A stretch of 64,000 nt of DNA from Patescibacteria group bacterium (GTDB lineage Bacteria; Patescibacteriota; Microgenomatia; UBA8517): positions 12,937-76,936 of the forward strand of contig JALHYA010000001.1 of NCBI GenBank assembly GCA_022868165.1. Direction: 5' to 3'. The translations under genes were made by a program, and so were the position numbers. Below are positions 15,552-61,895 of the stretch, piece after piece. Under the pieces are notes generated by a model. It made no database searches. It saw only the letters and a list, made by a program, of their open reading frames with translations, and was not told the origin of the DNA. How positions within the stretch are numbered: the stretch's first letter is position 1; each line of letters opens with the position of its first letter.

Positions 15552-16031
15552 TTAGGCCTTGGTGAACACCAACAGGAGGGCGAAGACAATGACGATCACG
15601 ATAACAATCACTCTCCTCCTCTTCATATACGGAGAGAGGGGAACCCGTGCAGGCCGTATCGCTTCCCGTTCCTCCACCGTTAGATGTTTGTACTCATCCC
15701 AACCGATCATCTGCCCGGACCTGTCCCTCCTGGGTTCCCACTGCATCATTAAAAACCAACCGATGAATTCGAGGGTGAAACCCAGAAGCCAGCCGATGGC
15801 CGGATGGCGTCCTTTGCCTTTGGCGACTTTTCCACCCAGCCAAGTCCAGGCGGCCAGGTATACCGCAAAACAGCTCGCCTCCGCCAGGCTCCGCCCCAAA
15901 CATAGCCCGTGGGTCTGCCAAACAGGACCGGCTTGGCTGCAGTCTGAGTGGGCACTCGCTGACATGATCCAGAACCAGCAGGCTGTTATGTACAGGATTG
16001 CCGGTGCTGCAAGAACCCATTTCTTCTTCAT
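15552..16031 (-). CDS. high-GC membrane/lipoprotein-like protein (island gene X)
   Basis: RBS AGGAGGG 5 nt upstream of the ATG. N-terminal signal with ITAC lipobox-like segment, C-terminal IVIVIVIV TM helix. Coding GC is markedly higher than the surroundings. Confidence 0.55.
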   Translation of the reverse strand: MKKKWVLAAPAILYITACWFWIMSASAHSDCSQAGPVWQTHGLCLGRSLAEASCFAVYLAAWTWLGGKVAKGKGRHPAIGWLLGFTLEFIGWFLMMQWEPRRDRSGQMIGWDEYKHLTVEEREAIRPARVPLSPYMKRRRVIVIVIVIVFALLLVFTKA

Positions 16032-16134
16032 CACGCCCTCCTTGTGGCGAATTATTTGACCGGATTGTCAAGGTGCACAAAAATGCCCGATGTTTCGGGC
16101 AAGTAGCTATATTGTACTTCAATAGGTCAATTTT

Positions 16135-16190
16135 CACAAAAAAAGAGGGCACTCACCTTTGATGCTTTCGCTTCGCAGGTTTGTGCCCTC
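16135..16190 (-). terminator. rho-independent terminator (minus strand) after gene 16253-16678
   Basis: Reverse complement: GAGGGCAC ... GTGCCCTC stem followed by TTTTTTTGTG. Confidence 0.55.
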
Positions 16191-16252
16191 ATGCACCCTA
16201 TCGGAAGTTTAACCACCCGCACCCTTGCTGGACACCGCATTGAACTGGCGAT

Positions 16253-16678
16253 TCAATGCGCCTCAGCGCTCCACTCCCATTCTCCCAGTTCACATCTTGT
16301 TGTCTGTCCGAACGATAACTCCGGCCTCAGGTCAATCGTTCCACTCGCCTCCGTCGGCGACGTAAACCGACCCTCCGCCTCCCCGATGCTTGACGAGGAG
16401 ACATTAATGCTGCCATCACGAATCGGAAACGGCATTCCGGATGCCTGGCTGGCCCATGACCCGGCTGAAAACCCGTCGCATCGTACGTCCGTAAGGCTGA
16501 AACCCACAAACGTGATGGCCGCTCCGTCGTCCGAAACGGTAAAGGTGAACGTGCCGCTGCTGGCCCCTCCACTGATATCGATAGGACCGCTGAATGTGCT
16601 CCCAGGCTCAGGCATTGAAGTCCCGCCGCATGCAACCAAAAGCACTGCGAGTAGCACGAGATACATATGCCGTTTCAT
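16253..16678 (-). CDS. high-GC lipoprotein (island gene Y)
   Basis: RBS AGGAGGG then ATG. MKRHMYLVLLAVLLVAC with lipobox LVAC. Ser/Gly/Thr-rich mature part. Start taken at Met17 of the track ORF. Confidence 0.55.
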   Translation of the reverse strand: MKRHMYLVLLAVLLVACGGTSMPEPGSTFSGPIDISGGASSGTFTFTVSDDGAAITFVGFSLTDVRCDGFSAGSWASQASGMPFPIRDGSINVSSSSIGEAEGRFTSPTEASGTIDLRPELSFGQTTRCELGEWEWSAEAH

Positions 16679-16767
16679 CTCGCCCTCCTTGTGGCGAATG
16701 TGTGACCGGATTGTCAAGGTGCACAAAAAACCCGCTTATACGGGCAGTTCCTATATTATACTCTTAG

Positions 16768-16840
16768 TGAGCCGCCCGAGACTCGAACTCGGAACCGTTA
16801 CCTTAAGAGGGTACTGCTCTACCGATTGAGCTAGCGGCCC
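16768..16840 (-). tRNA. tRNA-Lys (anticodon CTT)
   Basis: Acceptor GGGCCGC/GCGGCTC, D-arm TAGCTCAATCGGTAGAGCA, anticodon loop CTCTTAA, T-arm CCGAGTTCGAGTCTCGG. Confidence 0.8.
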
Positions 16841-45865: not shown

Positions 45866-46282
45866 TTAGGCGTTTTTGCGATACTTTTCAAGAAGAATCG
45901 ACACCCTCCTGTGGAAGCTTGATTTTCCGCGTCTTGTATGCGGCATAAGACTCCCGGAAAAATTGTGGGGAATATGGTTTAATTCGTGAATCAAAACACT
46001 ATCTTTTTCGTGTTCGGAAAGCCCATCATATCTTTCCGAAATAACTTCTACCACATACGAAGGACCAATCATAAGTGCCTGTTGCCAGATTCTGGATAGA
46101 CCCCAAATTCTGGCTATTGCACGAGTATTTGCGTTTATCGACCTGAAGCAGAAAATATTGTCTTTCTTTAGCCAGTCCAAACCAAGAAGAGATGCAAGCT
46201 TAACTATCTTTTTATGAATGTCGGGCGCGTTCGACCATTCGATTCGTCCTCGCCTTTTACGAAACTTTGTAAACCTCCGCAC
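45866..46282 (-). CDS. HExxH zinc-metallopeptidase-like protein (SprT/DUF45-like)
   Basis: HELNHIPH motif. Confidence 0.4.
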   Translation of the reverse strand: MRRFTKFRKRRGRIEWSNAPDIHKKIVKLASLLGLDWLKKDNIFCFRSINANTRAIARIWGLSRIWQQALMIGPSYVVEVISERYDGLSEHEKDSVLIHELNHIPHNFSGSLMPHTRRGKSSFHRRVSILLEKYRKNA

Positions 46283-46511
46283 CTTCTTTTACCTCCGAGC
46301 TAACTTTTAATCCTACCACTTCGCCCTTGCCTGCGGAATCTTTCTTTTCGTGCTCCACTTGGATAGATTCTACCGGTTGTTCAAACAAATCTTCCCCGCC
46401 CCTGCTAAACTTAATCTTGTCTCCGACAGCCAGCGCTCCGCTTAGTTCAACAACCGCTACCCCGATTTTGTCGTAATAATGCGTAACCTTGCCGATTTTG
46501 AAATCTGCCAT
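46257..46511 (-). CDS. small conserved hypothetical protein (beta-barrel-like)
   Basis: 84 aa, MADFKIGKVTHYYDKIGVAVVEL. Confidence 0.4.
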   Translation of the reverse strand: MADFKIGKVTHYYDKIGVAVVELSGALAVGDKIKFSRGGEDLFEQPVESIQVEHEKKDSAGKGEVVGLKVSSEVKEGAEVYKVS

Positions 46512-47033: not shown

Positions 47034-47249
47034 TCACTTTTTGACCTTTTTCTGGAAAAACGCCAGATAGACTATTTCCAAAAGTCCGACTGTATTAACT
47101 ATCAATAGCGCCACAAACCAATACCTTTGATTATTTCTGGCTGACTTCCAAAGAGCCAAACCCTTCCAGATTAAAGACCAAACCAAGGCAACAATAAGAA
47201 GAAAGCTGGGAAAATTGGCGGCCGGTCCGTAAAGAAGTGTTTTCAACAT
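47034..47249 (-). CDS. small membrane protein
   Basis: Start at Met25 (MLKTLLYG) preceded by RBS GGGAGGTG. Two TM helices. Confidence 0.45.
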   Translation of the reverse strand: MLKTLLYGPAANFPSFLLIVALVWSLIWKGLALWKSARNNQRYWFVALLIVNTVGLLEIVYLAFFQKKVKK

Positions 47250-47289
47250 TATTATCACCTCCCTCATGTTTTTATGATACAACAAAAAG

Positions 47290-47549
47290 AGCAGGCGCTG
47301 CGAGAAAACTAGTGAGGACAATCCTCAGCTACAAGCAGCAACCTGCCCCGAGTATTTATGCCGACGGCACAACCTGTGGAGACAACCCGCCTCGCAGAAT
47401 GAGGTAAGTTGTGCAACCCATGCACCGCCGGCAGGAAACCGCCTAGGACGCGCGCTGCCATGAACAGCTGTCACCGAAACACCGAGAGGGGCGGCGTTTC
47501 GGCCAAGTGTCCTAGACGGTCGCCGTTCCGGCAGGATGCCGGAACAGCT
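47290..47549 (-). ncRNA. GC-rich structured RNA-like region downstream of the atypical tRNA-like gene; unclassified
   Basis: By eye about 60% GC versus low-to-mid 40s elsewhere. On the minus strand there is a perfect 8-bp hairpin TTCCGGCA-TCC-TGCCGGAA and a 7-bp hairpin CCGAAAC...GTTTCGG. It ends with two hairpin+T-run elements at about 47290-47330. Track ORFs 47325-47621 and 47409-47666 lie on opposite strands with no RBS. I found no match to RNase P, SRP or tmRNA motifs. Confidence 0.35.
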
Positions 47550-47636
47550 ATGCTGACGCCAGGATTTGAACCTGGAACCTTCCGGGTGCGCACCGAGCGA
47601 GTTACCCGAACGCTCTTCCAATTGAGCTACGTCAGC
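47550..47636 (-). tRNA. atypical 87-nt tRNA-like gene (anticodon arm non-canonical; identity unresolved)
   Basis: Canonical acceptor GCTGACG/CGTCAGC, D-arm TAGCTCAATTGGAAGAGC and T-arm CCAGGTTCAAATCCTGG. The 36 nt between is GTTCGGGTAACTCGCTCGGTGCGCACCCGGAAGGTT, which has no standard 5-bp/7-nt anticodon arm; best alternative folds are given in the corresponding finding. TTGACA-17-TATATT promoter upstream. Confidence 0.4.
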
Positions 47637-47706
47637 GTCTTACAAAGTGCAACGAACAGAATTTGAAATATACTTTAGTCTTACTATCATGTCAATTCTC
47701 AACTTT

Positions 47707-48333
47707 TTAGTAGTTTATGAAATAATTTATCTTTGCTTTTGATTTGAGGTCTTGAATCCAAATCATATATGCATCGCGAAGTTTTTGCTGCTTGAGCTGG
47801 CCAATTATTTGGTCTTTGACGTCGGCAAGTTTTGCATTTTTATCAAACACGTCTTTGTTTTTCGTAAAGTAATCCTGAATTTCTGCGTCTGTCACTGTCA
47901 GTTTGTCTGCCAATAATTTTTCCAACATCATTTGAATCTTAATTTGGTCTCTCCAGTCTGCCATTGTGAGCCCCTGAGAGGTAAGCGCATCCTGCAAATT
48001 GGTACCCTGCTCCTTCAGAAGGCCCTCGACTCGGGTAACTTCGTTATCTACGTCAGCGGTTGGTATAACTATGTTTTTCTTGAAGGCCTCTTGCAAAATA
48101 AGTTGGTTGGAAACCAAACTGTCCAGAGCAGTTTTCCCAGACTGTTTTTCAAGTTCGCTAATCACTTGGACACGAAAAACAGGGCGACCGTTAACCAAAG
48201 CGGCTACAAAGAGGGACCGAAAGATAAATGCCAGGCCCAAAATTCCAAGGACTACAATCAAAATAATCCCCCAGCGGGGGAGTCTCAAAAATTTTAATTC
48301 CGAGACTTTTATTTTTGGAAATTTTAATTTCAT
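47707..48333 (-). CDS. membrane-anchored SurA-N/PpiD-like chaperone domain protein
   Basis: N-terminal TM helix followed by a SurA_N-like helical domain (QLILQEAFKKNIVI...). Confidence 0.5.
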   Translation of the reverse strand: MKLKFPKIKVSELKFLRLPRWGIILIVVLGILGLAFIFRSLFVAALVNGRPVFRVQVISELEKQSGKTALDSLVSNQLILQEAFKKNIVIPTADVDNEVTRVEGLLKEQGTNLQDALTSQGLTMADWRDQIKIQMMLEKLLADKLTVTDAEIQDYFTKNKDVFDKNAKLADVKDQIIGQLKQQKLRDAYMIWIQDLKSKAKINYFINY

Positions 48334-48348
48334 ACTTCTCCGATGATA

Positions 48349-48930
48349 TCAGTCAACCGTTAACATAGCAATATTAAAGGCTTCCCCATGACCGGGATAA
48401 ATAACTGTGGACGAAGGAAGTTTCTTAATTTTCTTTAGAGATTTTACTAGAGTTTTCTTGTCGGAATAATCAAAATCCGTCCTACCGAATGTCCCATCTG
48501 CAAAGTAGATGTCCCCCACCACTACAAATTTTGAGGATGTGCAATACAGAGAGATGCTGCCTGGAGTATGTCCCGGAGTTTCGATTATTTTTATTTTGCC
48601 TTTGCCAATCACTAGTGAATCTCCGTCAGATATGTCAGTTGCGATTTTGGGAGAAGGACGAAATCTTCTAAAAAGGAATTCATCGCCCTTGTTAATTAAT
48701 ACCGGAACATTATAAGCAAGAGATAGTTCCAACACTGCATCCGTATGGTCCCAATGTCCATGGGTCAAAATTATTTTTATCGGATTAATAGATAAATCGG
48801 CGACAACTACCTCGATATAATCGGCGCTATCCCCAGGGTCTACCAAGATTGCATCCTTTGTCTTTTCGTCCCAAATCAAGTAGCAATTTGTTGCCGATTC
48901 CCCTACTTTAATCGAATGAATTTTTAGCAT
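48349..48930 (-). CDS. MBL-fold metallo-hydrolase (glyoxalase II-like)
   Basis: THGHWDH motif. Confidence 0.7.
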   Translation of the reverse strand: MLKIHSIKVGESATNCYLIWDEKTKDAILVDPGDSADYIEVVVADLSINPIKIILTHGHWDHTDAVLELSLAYNVPVLINKGDEFLFRRFRPSPKIATDISDGDSLVIGKGKIKIIETPGHTPGSISLYCTSSKFVVVGDIYFADGTFGRTDFDYSDKKTLVKSLKKIKKLPSSTVIYPGHGEAFNIAMLTVD

Positions 48931-61820: not shown

Positions 61821-61892
61821 GCCAACGTAGCTCAGCGGTAGAGCAGTCCCTTCGTAAGGGAAAGGTCGGTGGTTCAATCCCACCCGTTGGCT
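61821..61892 (+). tRNA. tRNA-Thr (anticodon CGT)
   Basis: Acceptor GCCAACG/CGTTGGC, D-arm GCTCAGCGGTAGAGC, anticodon loop TTCGTAA, T-arm GGTGGTTCAATCCCACC. Confidence 0.8.
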
Positions 61893-61895
61893 CAG

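What the first reader, a model, noticed from the sequence alone, without database searches (positions are those of the whole stretch)
47290..47636. ~345-nt GC-rich block: an atypical 87-nt tRNA-like gene followed by ~250 nt of highly structured RNA-like sequence
A TTGACA-17-TATATT promoter at about 47650-47690 (minus) precedes a gene with a perfect tRNA acceptor stem, D-arm and T-arm. The 36 nt where the anticodon arm and variable region belong cannot form a canonical 5-bp/7-nt anticodon arm. The best alternatives are a wobble-rich stem with loop TAACTCG, or a 6-bp helix enclosing an 18-nt loop, which looks intron-like. Downstream (47290-47549) the sequence stays GC-rich (~60% by eye) with several perfect hairpins, and ends with two hairpin+T-run elements just before the RBS of a small membrane-protein gene. 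Two track ORFs here lie on opposite strands, have no RBS, and show RNA-like composition. I could not match RNase P, SRP or tmRNA motifs by eye. Candidates are a non-canonical or intron-bearing tRNA with a long structured trailer, a novel ncRNA, or a cis-regulatory leader for the downstream gene.
Basis: seen in the sequence. Interest (0 to 1): 0.65.

Follow-up and report, generated by a model that had tools for sequence, protein, structure and literature searches.

The report
tRNA mimic fused to structured RNA
A small group of ultra-small (CPR/Patescibacteria) bacteria carries a conserved non-coding gene: a tRNA-shaped module that cannot read codons, then about 270 nt of hairpins ending in an unusually conserved terminator. 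It matches no catalogued RNA family, and its function is unknown.

Summary
On the minus strand, a near-consensus promoter (47695-47667) precedes a tRNA-shaped element (47636-47551). Its acceptor, D and T arms are canonical, but a 7-bp helix with a 16-nt loop replaces the anticodon arm. About 270 nt of strongly structured RNA follows (P1-P4, 47548-47280; fold z = -8). It ends in a nested hairpin plus U-tract 30 nt upstream of a DUF5652-ruvC operon.

No Rfam family matches the trailer. ARAGORN finds no tmRNA, and neither a group I core nor a bulge-helix-bulge intron is present. The ORFs here are spurious.

The same unit sits at the same locus in every relative I could fetch: four further lineages of the window type and two divergent ones. 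The cloverleaf and the P2 junction show compensatory changes. The enlarged loop is unconstrained, and no anticodon is shared between lineages. P4 is the most conserved element of the locus (93% identity where genes are 70-87%).

My best reading is a lineage-restricted stable RNA unit. The non-decoding tRNA mimic would serve as an RNase P/Z processing handle, and P4 would act as terminator and recognition site. A cis-acting leader for the operon is the main rival. Function is inferred, not shown. This is a new variant of a known kind, of moderate interest.

The parts
47667..47695 (-). Sigma-70-type promoter TTGACA-17-TATATT
   Evidence: 11 of 12 matches. TTGAC and TATATT are invariant in the four window-type lineages. 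L016 and L019 have TTGACA-17-TAAAAT.
47637..47666 (-). 5' leader between promoter and tRNA-like element, with conserved ATTCTGTT
   Evidence: In relative L006 a genuine tRNA-Thr(CGU) is inserted here.
47551..47636 (-). Non-decoding tRNA-like element: canonical 7-bp acceptor stem, D arm, 5-nt variable region, T arm, discriminator A; no encoded CCA
   Evidence: Cloverleaf across six loci: 91.5% of cells paired, 13 of 22 pairs changed on both sides, 0 of 500 shuffles as good.
47581..47610 (-). Anticodon-arm replacement: 7-bp helix UUCGGGU/ACCCGGA enclosing the 16-nt loop AACUCGCUCGGUGCGC
   Evidence: The loop is 3-8 of 18 identical between lineages, against 42-48 of 56 for the tRNA body.
47522..47548 (-). 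P1 hairpin, starting 2 nt after the discriminator base. Variable tip (46-nt expansion in L002). Its 3' strand GCCGGAACGGCGA is nearly invariant (11 of 13 positions).
47437..47521 (-). P2 three-way junction: 12-bp closing stem, arms P2a and P2b, invariant junction GGUGAC. The P2a loop CCCCUCU resembles an anti-Shine-Dalgarno sequence.
   Evidence: 90.4% paired; 7 pairs with changes on both sides versus 3.6 +/- 1.2 in shuffles.
47359..47433 (-). P3 long hairpin. The closing stem is conserved and shows G-U / G-C / A-U alternation. The interior is variable, and the whole domain is absent in L008.
47288..47349 (-). P4 long irregular hairpin: GGGGCAGG-UGCUGC[UUG-UAG-C-UGAGGA-uug-UCCUCA-CUA-GUUUUCUC]GCAGC-CCUGCUCU. 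It is the most conserved element of the locus.
   Evidence: 93% identity to L006 and L008, where coding genes are 70-87%. CM R1 scores 99.6 bits here and nothing above 10.3 bits elsewhere in the window.
47313..47327 (-). Inner hairpin of P4: a Shine-Dalgarno-like strand (UGAGGA) paired to an anti-SD-like strand (UCCUCA), followed by CUAGUUUUCU
47280..47288 (-). Interrupted U-tract (UUUUUGUUG) after P4
   Evidence: TTGTTGTA is invariant in the relatives.
47250..47279 (-). Spacer with a -10-like TATCAT (47279-47274) and the DUF5652 Shine-Dalgarno GAGGGAGGUGA (47265-47255)
   Evidence: A TAnnAT hexamer lies at this place in all seven lineages (read by eye).
47034..47249 (-). Context: DUF5652 small membrane protein gene (71 aa), first gene of the DUF5652-ruvC-... 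array

Best explanation
This is one transcription unit for a lineage-restricted stable non-coding RNA.

Shown: a near-consensus promoter precedes a precursor-like unit made of a short leader, an L-shaped tRNA mimic that cannot decode, and about 270 nt of hairpin domains P1-P4. In place of an anticodon arm the mimic has a fast-evolving long hairpin.

Inferred: because the mimic keeps every element that tRNA-maturation enzymes recognise (acceptor/T-arm stack, D/T-loop elbow, discriminator A), RNase P cuts at its 5' end and RNase Z at its 3' end. The mimic would then act as a processing and stability handle. Cleavage would release a downstream RNA whose new 5' end is immediately protected by hairpin P1.

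Shown: P4 is a nested hairpin with two U-rich tracts, and its unpaired residues are invariant. Inferred: P4 terminates most transcription before the DUF5652-ruvC array and serves as a specific recognition site for a conserved partner, probably a protein. P1-P3 behave like variable peripheral segments around the conserved P2 junction.
For: - The promoter is 11 of 12 to consensus and is conserved in all seven lineages.
- The tRNA-like body is canonical and keeps its pairing through compensatory changes. This includes changes among true orthologues: U3-A70 to C3-G70, C6-G67 to U6-A67, and a T-stem A-U to C-G.
- The anticodon-arm loop is unconstrained and differs in length: 20, 19, 13 and 12 nt.
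- In L006 a real tRNA-Thr lies in the same unit, 24 nt upstream, so the element sits in a tRNA-operon context.
- The trailer is exceptionally stable on this strand only. It has the same domain architecture in L006 and L008. P2 shows covariation.
- Domains are gained and lost as modules: a P1 expansion in L002 and loss of P3 in L008.
- P4 is 93% identical where neighbouring genes are 70-87%. It is single-copy.
- The region is not coding.
- No known RNA family matches.
Against: - No expression or processing data exist. RNase P/Z cleavage, termination at P4 and any binding partner are all inferred.
- Only four distinct full-length sequences, one partial and two divergent loci could be fetched, so the covariation statistics are thin.
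- The whole-collection pattern scans found no further members.
- The P1-P3 sequences are not recognisably conserved in L016 and L019, and their 3' domains do not score with the P4 model. A single broad family is therefore unproven.
- The unit always abuts the DUF5652 ribosome-binding site, and I found no convincing -35 element for a separate downstream promoter. This fits a cis-acting leader equally well.
- The U-tracts are interrupted (weak in L015 and L006), so termination may be inefficient.
Confidence: 0.4

Rival explanations
1. Cis-acting leader or attenuator of the DUF5652-ruvC-holA gene array. The strong promoter drives the operon. P4 is a conditional terminator, or an SD / anti-SD switch, whose state is set by a protein or another factor that recognises its invariant loops. 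The tRNA-like element only trims and stabilises the 5' end.
For: - The unit lies immediately upstream of the DUF5652 ribosome-binding site (about 30-40 nt) in all seven lineages that have it.
- No clear -35/-10 pair lies between P4 and the gene (by eye).
- P4 pairs an SD-like strand with an anti-SD-like strand. In L015 the SD-like strand is AAGGAGGUGA, nearly identical to the real SD.
- P2 loops are anti-SD-like.
- The U-tracts are imperfect, which would allow read-through.
Against: - I found no conserved alternative (antiterminator) pairing. The one candidate (P2b GCAGC with P4 GCUGC) is absent in L008.
- P1-P3 vary too much for a ligand-binding aptamer.
- The downstream genes are housekeeping genes with no obvious shared signal.
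- In L017 DUF5652 follows the upstream gene directly with no such unit; in L018 it follows TatD, with only tRNA-like elements further upstream.
- In the MFE folds, P4 forms regardless of the downstream sequence.
Confidence: 0.3
2. Trans-acting base-pairing sRNA. The processed trailer uses exposed C/U-rich (anti-SD-like) loops to occlude the G-rich Shine-Dalgarno sequences of target mRNAs, as the C-rich loops of RsaE/RoxS-type sRNAs do.
For: CCUCC-like loops occur in P2a (window CCCCUCU, L002 CCCCCCUCC, L008 ACCUCCC) or in P2b (L006 ACCUCC). The unit has its own strong promoter and a terminator.
Against: - An anti-SD-like motif would pair with almost any SD, so there is no specificity signal.
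- The motif changes position (P2a versus P2b).
- C-rich loops are expected in a 60% GC RNA.
- The most conserved part is P4, not these loops.
Confidence: 0.1
3. A decaying tRNA gene plus neutral or selfish GC-rich hairpins (for example a relic of an element integrated next to a tRNA) with no function of its own.
For: - The anticodon loop is degenerate and variable.
- The middle domains come and go.
- Another GC-rich, apparently foreign, island sits beside tRNA-Lys in the same window.
- The distribution is very narrow.
Against: - Compensatory substitutions maintain the acceptor, T, P2 and P3 helices.
- P4 is more conserved than any neighbouring gene.
- The promoter is conserved.
- The sequence is identical across four samples.
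- There are no repeats or other copies and no phage or plasmid similarity.
Confidence: 0.1
4. A genuine decoding tRNA whose anticodon loop carries a short intron, or an expanded loop used for unusual decoding.
For: - ARAGORN and Rfam both call it a tRNA.
- The first two loop bases are N-U in three lineages.
- Patescibacteria are rich in tRNA introns (PMC13011429).
Against: - The known Patescibacteria tRNA introns are self-splicing group I introns at position 35/36 (PMC13011429). Here the insert is 13 nt, with no group I hit and no bulge-helix-bulge.
- The putative anticodons differ between orthologues (AAC, CUG, ACC; ARAGORN gives Ser, Ser, Gly, Pro and '???').
- Loop lengths of 12-20 nt are far beyond the 8-nt loops of quadruplet decoders (background knowledge).
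Confidence: 0.05

Closest known systems
Canonical bacterial tRNA (Rfam RF00005)
   Same: It has a 7-bp acceptor stem, U8, A14, the G18G19 D loop, a 5-nt variable region, a GGUUCRAnUCC T arm and discriminator A. It scores 56.3 bits against the model. No CCA is encoded, as for the other 18 tRNAs in the window.
   Different: The anticodon arm is a 7-9-bp helix with an 8-16-nt loop of unconstrained sequence. No anticodon is conserved among the orthologues. It cannot be a standard decoder.
tRNA-like processing modules attached to non-coding RNAs (MALAT1/mascRNA, MEN-beta/menRNA; plant and archaeal t-elements), and functional RNAs released from bacterial tRNA precursors (3'ETS-leuZ)
   Same: A tRNA-shaped module lies directly next to a structured non-coding RNA in one transcript, so the tRNA-maturation enzymes would define the ends of the neighbouring RNA. 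In L006 the unit lies within a tRNA operon.
   Different: In MALAT1 the mimic sits 3' of the long RNA; here it sits 5'. mascRNA lacks a proper D arm and anticodon loop; here only the anticodon arm is aberrant. 3'ETS-leuZ is a short unstructured spacer after a real tRNA. Cleavage here is inferred, not shown. These comparisons rest on background knowledge and on PMC8457004 and PMC9777231, which came up and were read as title and abstract only.
tmRNA and bacterial Y RNA (YrlA) tRNA-like domains
   Same: These are bacterial non-coding RNAs that combine tRNA mimicry with extra structured domains.
   Different: In tmRNA and YrlA the mimic is assembled from the two ends of the RNA or lacks a D stem. 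Here it is a contiguous, complete cloverleaf. ARAGORN finds no tmRNA, there is no conserved tag ORF, and there is no Rfam hit.
Group I intron-containing tRNA genes of Patescibacteria (PMC13011429)
   Same: Same phylum, and a tRNA gene associated with about 250 nt of structured RNA that standard annotation handles poorly.
   Different: Those introns interrupt the anticodon loop at 35/36 and have a group I catalytic core. Here the structured RNA lies after a complete 3' acceptor strand, has no group I signature, and no 3' exon follows it.
Intrinsic terminator / attenuator leaders
   Same: A GC-rich hairpin plus a U-rich tract lies directly upstream of an operon, with nested hairpins.
   Different: P4 is far more conserved than ordinary terminators, including its bulge and internal-loop residues. 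No conserved antiterminator alternative was found.

Membership tests
tRNA (RF00005), as a decoding tRNA | Cloverleaf with acceptor, D and T arms; score above the Rfam gathering threshold | tested here: met
   56.3 bits against a threshold of 29. ARAGORN also calls it. Covariation supports the fold.
tRNA (RF00005), as a decoding tRNA | 5-bp anticodon stem with a 7-nt loop (U33, purine 37) | tested here: not met
   Infernal places 20 nt where 7 belong. The MFE fold is a 7-bp stem plus a 16-nt loop. Relatives have 19, 20, 13 and 12 nt.
tRNA (RF00005), as a decoding tRNA | Orthologues keep the same anticodon | tested here: not met
   ARAGORN gives Ser(ACT), Ser(TGA), Gly(ACC), Pro(CGG) and ???(ACCA). 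The loop is 3-8 of 18 identical between lineages.
Group I intron in a tRNA | Insertion inside the anticodon loop with a group I catalytic core; a 3' exon after the intron | tested here: not met
   No Intron_gpI hit even at E <= 10. The structured RNA follows a complete tRNA 3' end, and no tRNA 3' half follows P4.
Archaeal-type (BHB) tRNA intron | Two 3-nt bulges separated by a 4-bp helix at the exon-intron junctions | tested here: not met
   The fold shows a 4-nt and a 1-nt bulge around a 3-bp helix. There is no 3-4-3 motif in any lineage (by eye).
tmRNA | tRNA-like domain formed by the 5' and 3' ends, plus a tag-peptide ORF | tested here: not met
   ARAGORN reports no tmRNA. No reading frame is conserved.
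RNase P RNA, SRP RNA, 6S RNA, T-box, riboswitches, self-cleaving ribozymes (Rfam 15) | Match to the family covariance model | tested here: not met
   Apart from the tRNA model, there is no hit to any of the 4227 models with E < 0.65, in the window or in six relatives.
Intrinsic terminator | GC-rich hairpin followed directly by a U-tract | tested here: met
   The inner hairpin is called by the scan. The outer P4 stem plus UCUUUUUGUUG is read from the sequence. The U-tract is interrupted and is weak in L015.
Terminator/antiterminator attenuator | A conserved, mutually exclusive alternative pairing | tested here: inconclusive
   None was found by eye or in the MFE folds. Only four to five sequences were available.
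tRNA-like processing handle (mascRNA / t-element type) | Cleavage by RNase P at the 5' end and RNase Z at the 3' end of the mimic | not testable with these tools
   All recognition elements are present, but there are no transcript data.
Structured ncRNA (generic) | Conserved secondary structure with compensatory changes, and non-coding | tested here: met
   P2: 90.4% paired, 7 double changes against 3.6 +/- 1.2 in shuffles, slid controls 33-42%. The architecture recurs. The ORFs are not conserved.

The most novel reading that the evidence does not exclude
The element may be a previously unrecognised class of bacterial tRNA-mimic RNA, a natural 'tRNA scaffold'. In this reading the L-shaped body is kept so that it can engage tRNA-binding machinery beyond the processing enzymes: the CCA-adding enzyme, an anticodon-independent synthetase, EF-Tu-like proteins, or anticodon nucleases as a decoy. 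The hypervariable, expandable anticodon arm (12-20 nt here; about 51 nt in the 116-nt tRNA-like gene of L018) and/or the attached P2-P4 RNA would carry the lineage-specific function.
Probability: 0.12. Interest if true: 0.8.

Novelty: new variant of a known kind. Interest (0 to 1): 0.5.

Why it matters
CPR/Patescibacteria have tiny genomes and almost no characterised regulatory RNAs.

- A conserved unit that keeps a perfect tRNA body while discarding the anticodon would be a bacterial counterpart of the eukaryotic mascRNA/MALAT1 arrangement. That would show tRNA-maturation enzymes being reused to shape other RNAs in minimal cells.
- The unit also contains an element (P4) more conserved than the surrounding essential genes. 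P4 therefore points to an unknown RNA-binding partner.
- On the practical side, these loci are mis-annotated as tRNA-Ser, tRNA-Gly, tRNA-Pro or 'undetermined'. That distorts tRNA inventories and genetic-code inference for CPR genomes.

Tried and rejected
1. Known RNA families. Rfam at gathering thresholds and at E <= 10, on 64 kb, 901 nt and 283 nt, and on six relatives, returned only the tRNA model.
2. tmRNA. There is no ARAGORN call. The 50-aa frame ending in ...LLLVAEDCPH is cut by a stop in L002 and has no start in L006 (by eye).
3. Coding potential. There are no Pfam hits above the curated cut-off. The longest frame acquires 10 stops in L006.
4. Intron models. Group I, BHB and 'remove any internal segment' all failed to give a consistent anticodon.
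5. Wider distribution by exact-pattern scans of the P4 core.
   - GTDB species genomes: one match (a Pontiellaceae genome), which I take to be chance.
   - JGI metagenomes: only the contig already known.
   - IMG/VR: none.
6. Similarity to phages or plasmids: none.
7. Other copies. blastn, nhmmer and the P4 covariance model found no other copy in the window or the other loci.
8. Homology of the 3' domains of L016 and L019 to P4. It was not significant (9 bits, E ~ 2). Only position and architecture are shared.
9. A conserved kissing interaction between the enlarged tRNA loop and the trailer. The best duplexes fall at different places and are mostly no better than shuffled loops.
10. P2 as 5S rRNA-like, or as a T-loop/tRNA-elbow-binding module. 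There is no Rfam support, and the candidate UGACA T-loop is not conserved in L006.
11. An antiterminator formed by P2b GCAGC and P4 GCUGC. It is absent in L008.
12. Synteny-based search beyond about 55% SurA identity. The locus is rearranged there.

Full report
**What is in the sequence**

Everything lies on the minus strand.

- Promoter: a near-consensus sigma-70 promoter, TTGACA-17-TATATT, at 47695-47667.
- Leader: 30 nt.
- tRNA-like element: 86 nt at 47636-47551. ARAGORN labels it tRNA-Ser(ACT). The Rfam tRNA model scores it at 56.3 bits against a threshold of 29. It does so only by inserting 20 nt where the 7-nt anticodon loop belongs, between the stem halves UUCGG and CCGGA.
- Fold of the element: alone, the RNA folds into a textbook acceptor stem, D arm, 5-nt variable region and T arm. 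In place of the anticodon arm it has a 7-bp helix closing a 16-nt loop. By eye, the tertiary-interaction nucleotides are canonical: U8, A14, A15-U48, G18G19 and the UUCAAAU T loop.
- CCA: not encoded, as for the other 18 tRNAs of the window.

**The trailer**

The 276 nt that follow are about 59% GC in a 43.6% GC window. They fold to -139.4 kcal/mol, against -100.5 +/- 4.9 for dinucleotide shuffles (z = -7.96). The complementary strand reaches only -110.3.

The MFE structure has four domains:

- P1 hairpin, 47548-47522, starting 2 nt after the discriminator base.
- P2 three-way junction, 47521-47437.
- P3 long hairpin, 47433-47359.
- P4, 47349-47288. The inner hairpin UGAGGA/UCCUCA and the tract CUAGUUUUCU are nested inside the outer stems GGCAGG-UGCUGC / GCAGC-CCUGC. 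The tract UCUUUUUGUUG follows.

Thirty nucleotides further on are the Shine-Dalgarno sequence and the ATG (47249) of a 71-aa DUF5652 membrane protein. After it come ruvC, an 84-aa protein, a metallopeptidase-like protein, holA and more, all co-directional.

**What it is not**

- Rfam 15 gives nothing but the tRNA model. I ran it at gathering thresholds and at E <= 10 with the most permissive filters, on the window and on six related loci. No RNase P, SRP, 6S, tmRNA, T-box, group I/II intron, riboswitch or ribozyme model matched.
- ARAGORN finds no tmRNA.
- The ORFs across the block have no Pfam match above the curated cut-off. Their frames are interrupted in relatives: the 104-codon open frame has 10 stops in L006.
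- There is no similarity to phage or plasmid records.
- There is no second copy in the window.

**Relatives**

The window comes from a Patescibacteria (CPR) genome. The neighbour proteins are annotated 'Patescibacteria group bacterium', and their homologues at about 45-50% identity are in Levybacteria and Roizmanbacteria. I fetched loci through homologues of the two flanking proteins.

| Lineage | Evidence | What it has |
|---|---|---|
| L002-L005 | identical in four independent samples | full unit, window type |
| L006/L007 | | full unit, window type |
| L008 | | full unit, window type; P3 absent |
| L015 | contig end cuts it | P3-P4, recognisably the same family |
| L016, L019 | DUF5652 69-71% identical | same layout, but hairpins of unrelated sequence |

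The window-type lineages share the order SurA-like gene, promoter, tRNA-like element, P1-P4, DUF5652-ruvC.

L016 and L019 keep the layout: a TTGACA-17-TAAAAT promoter, a tRNA-like element with an enlarged loop (13 and 12 nt), about 200 nt of GC-rich hairpins, a long-stem hairpin plus U-tract, then DUF5652. The P4 covariance model does not score their 3' domains significantly (9 bits). For these two loci I claim shared position and architecture only.

Beyond about 55% SurA identity the locus is rearranged. In L017 DUF5652 directly follows the upstream gene with no such unit; in L018 it follows TatD, with two tRNA-like elements further upstream. Exact-pattern scans for the P4 core found nothing new in GTDB species genomes, JGI metagenomes or IMG/VR. 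As far as these tools can see, the element is restricted to one narrow clade.

**Evidence of selection**

- Cloverleaf, across six loci: 91.5% of pair cells are standard pairs, and 13 of 22 pairs change on both sides. No shuffle out of 500 does as well, and slid controls give 32-48%. Any two tRNAs would show this, so orthologues matter more. Within the window-type orthologues the acceptor and T stems also change compensatorily: U3-A70 to C3-G70, C6-G67 to U6-A67, and A-U to C-G in the T stem.
- Enlarged loop: it is essentially free to vary. The tRNA body is 42-48 of 56 identical between lineages, but the loop only 3-8 of 18. Loop length also varies. The anticodons one could extract differ (AAC, CUG, ACC). 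The element is therefore maintained as a tRNA shape, not as a decoder.
- P2: 90.4% of cells are paired. Seven pairs change on both sides, against 3.6 +/- 1.2 in shuffles (2 of 500 reach this). Slid controls give 33-42%.
- P3: the closing stem shows G-U, G-C and A-U at one pair across lineages (by eye).
- Modularity: L002 has a 46-nt expansion at the tip of P1, and L008 lacks P3 altogether. This is how peripheral segments of functional RNAs behave.
- P4: this is the outlier. It is 93% identical to L006 and L008, where the coding genes of the locus are 70-87% identical and P1-P3 only 72-77% over half their length. Its invariant positions include the bulge and the internal-loop residues UUG, C and GUUUUCUC. 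An ordinary terminator would not be held this tightly.

**How it most likely works**

Shown:
- a conserved strong promoter;
- a complete but non-decoding tRNA fold;
- a strand-specific, conserved multi-domain structure;
- a nested hairpin plus U-tracts at the 3' end;
- a fixed position in front of DUF5652-ruvC.

Inferred:
- The mimic keeps exactly what RNase P and RNase Z recognise, and in L006 it sits 24 nt behind a genuine tRNA-Thr in the same unit. It is therefore probably excised like a tRNA. That would define the 5' end of the trailer, which hairpin P1 then protects.
- P4 stops most transcription and is also a specific recognition site for a conserved partner.

I rate 'stable processed non-coding RNA unit' at 0.40.

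The main rival, at 0.30, is a cis-acting leader or attenuator for the operon. In its favour:
- the constant abutment to the DUF5652 ribosome-binding site;
- no obvious downstream promoter;
- the SD-like / anti-SD-like pairing inside P4, which is striking in L015, where AAGGAGGUGA copies the real SD.

Against it:
- no conserved alternative pairing;
- highly variable P1-P3;
- housekeeping target genes.

The lesser rivals are:
- a trans-acting sRNA using anti-SD-like loops (0.10);
- a decaying tRNA plus neutral hairpins (0.10, contradicted by the covariation and by P4);
- a decoding tRNA with a mini-intron (0.05).

**Comparison with what is known**

It works most like the tRNA-like processing modules attached to non-coding RNAs (mascRNA/MALAT1, t-elements) and like functional RNAs released from bacterial tRNA precursors (3'ETS-leuZ). 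It differs in orientation, in the completeness of the cloverleaf and in the size and structure of the partner RNA. The cleavage itself is untested.

It is not a member of the decoding tRNAs, because the anticodon-loop and conserved-anticodon criteria fail. It is also not tmRNA or Y RNA, and not one of the intron-containing tRNAs recently described in this phylum. Those are group I introns at position 35/36 of tRNA-Asn and tRNA-Asp (PMC13011429). The literature searches found no description of this element.

**Verdict**

This is a real, conserved, non-coding feature. I class it as a new variant of a known kind (a tRNA-mimic-linked structured RNA). It is lineage-restricted, and its function is still inferred. 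Interest 0.5.

The most novel reading still open is that the mimic engages tRNA-binding machinery beyond processing. In that case it would be a natural tRNA scaffold with a hypervariable arm (probability about 0.12).

Noticed in passing
window 15552-16760 (minus strand), next to tRNA-Lys(CTT) at 16767-16840: A GC-rich (~58%) island holds two small ORFs: a lipoprotein-like ORF (16253-16726) and a membrane-protein ORF (15552-16034). Each is preceded by the same ~55-nt repeat, TTTTGTGCACCTTGACAATCCGGTCA..TTCGCCACAAGGAGGGCG.GATGAA, which reads as a promoter plus RBS. It looks like a foreign cassette pair inserted beside a tRNA gene.
   Followed up: partly
L018 1867-1982 and 1752-1825: In a relative where TatD precedes DUF5652, there is a 116-nt tRNA-like gene (Rfam tRNA 45.5 bits) whose anticodon arm carries a ~51-nt hairpin insertion. 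ARAGORN misses it. It is preceded by an odd 'tRNA-Asn(ATT)' with a 3-bp anticodon stem. This suggests that expandable anticodon arms are a recurring theme in this clade.
   Followed up: partly
L006 3690-3761: A genuine tRNA-Thr(CGU) sits between the conserved promoter and the tRNA-like element, 24 nt upstream of it. In the window genome, tRNA-Thr(CGT) is elsewhere (61821-61893).
   Followed up: no
window 47707-48930 versus L002 2368-3591: Between the window and its closest relative, the SurA-like and MBL-fold genes are only 72.6% and 80.0% identical at the DNA level. All flanking genes are 92-98% identical. This is a local hypervariable or recombined patch immediately upstream of the RNA unit.
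   Followed up: no
window 47225-47268 (minus strand): In the MFE folds of the window, L002 and L008, the DUF5652 Shine-Dalgarno sequence (GGGAGGUG) pairs with codons 4-7 (CACUUCUUU), leaving the start codon in the loop. This may be a translational hairpin.
   Followed up: no
window 46257-46511 (minus strand): The 84-aa protein two genes downstream has weak matches to EF-Tu domain 2 and Peptidase_U32_C beta-barrels. It is the best-conserved coding gene of the locus in L006 (87% nt identity). It is a candidate RNA-binding protein, but no link to the RNA was tested.
   Followed up: no
window 47540-47558 (minus strand) and the equivalent sites in L006 and L008: The 3' acceptor strand and the first bases of the trailer can form a small alternative hairpin around an AUA loop: CAGC-AUA-GCUG in the window, CGGC-AUA-GCCG in L006 and CGGU-AUA-ACCG in L008. 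The two sides change together (by eye). Its significance is unknown, and it may be a by-product of P1 pairing.
   Followed up: partly
window, whole: There are 19 tRNA or tRNA-like genes in 64 kb, and none encodes the 3' CCA.
   Followed up: partly
L013 2275-2301: This was the only GTDB-representative hit to the P4 core pattern. It lies in a Pontiellaceae MAG, and the P4 model scores it at only 7.4 bits over a fragment, so I take it to be a chance match. The window's own genome was not recovered from the GTDB representative set.
   Followed up: yes
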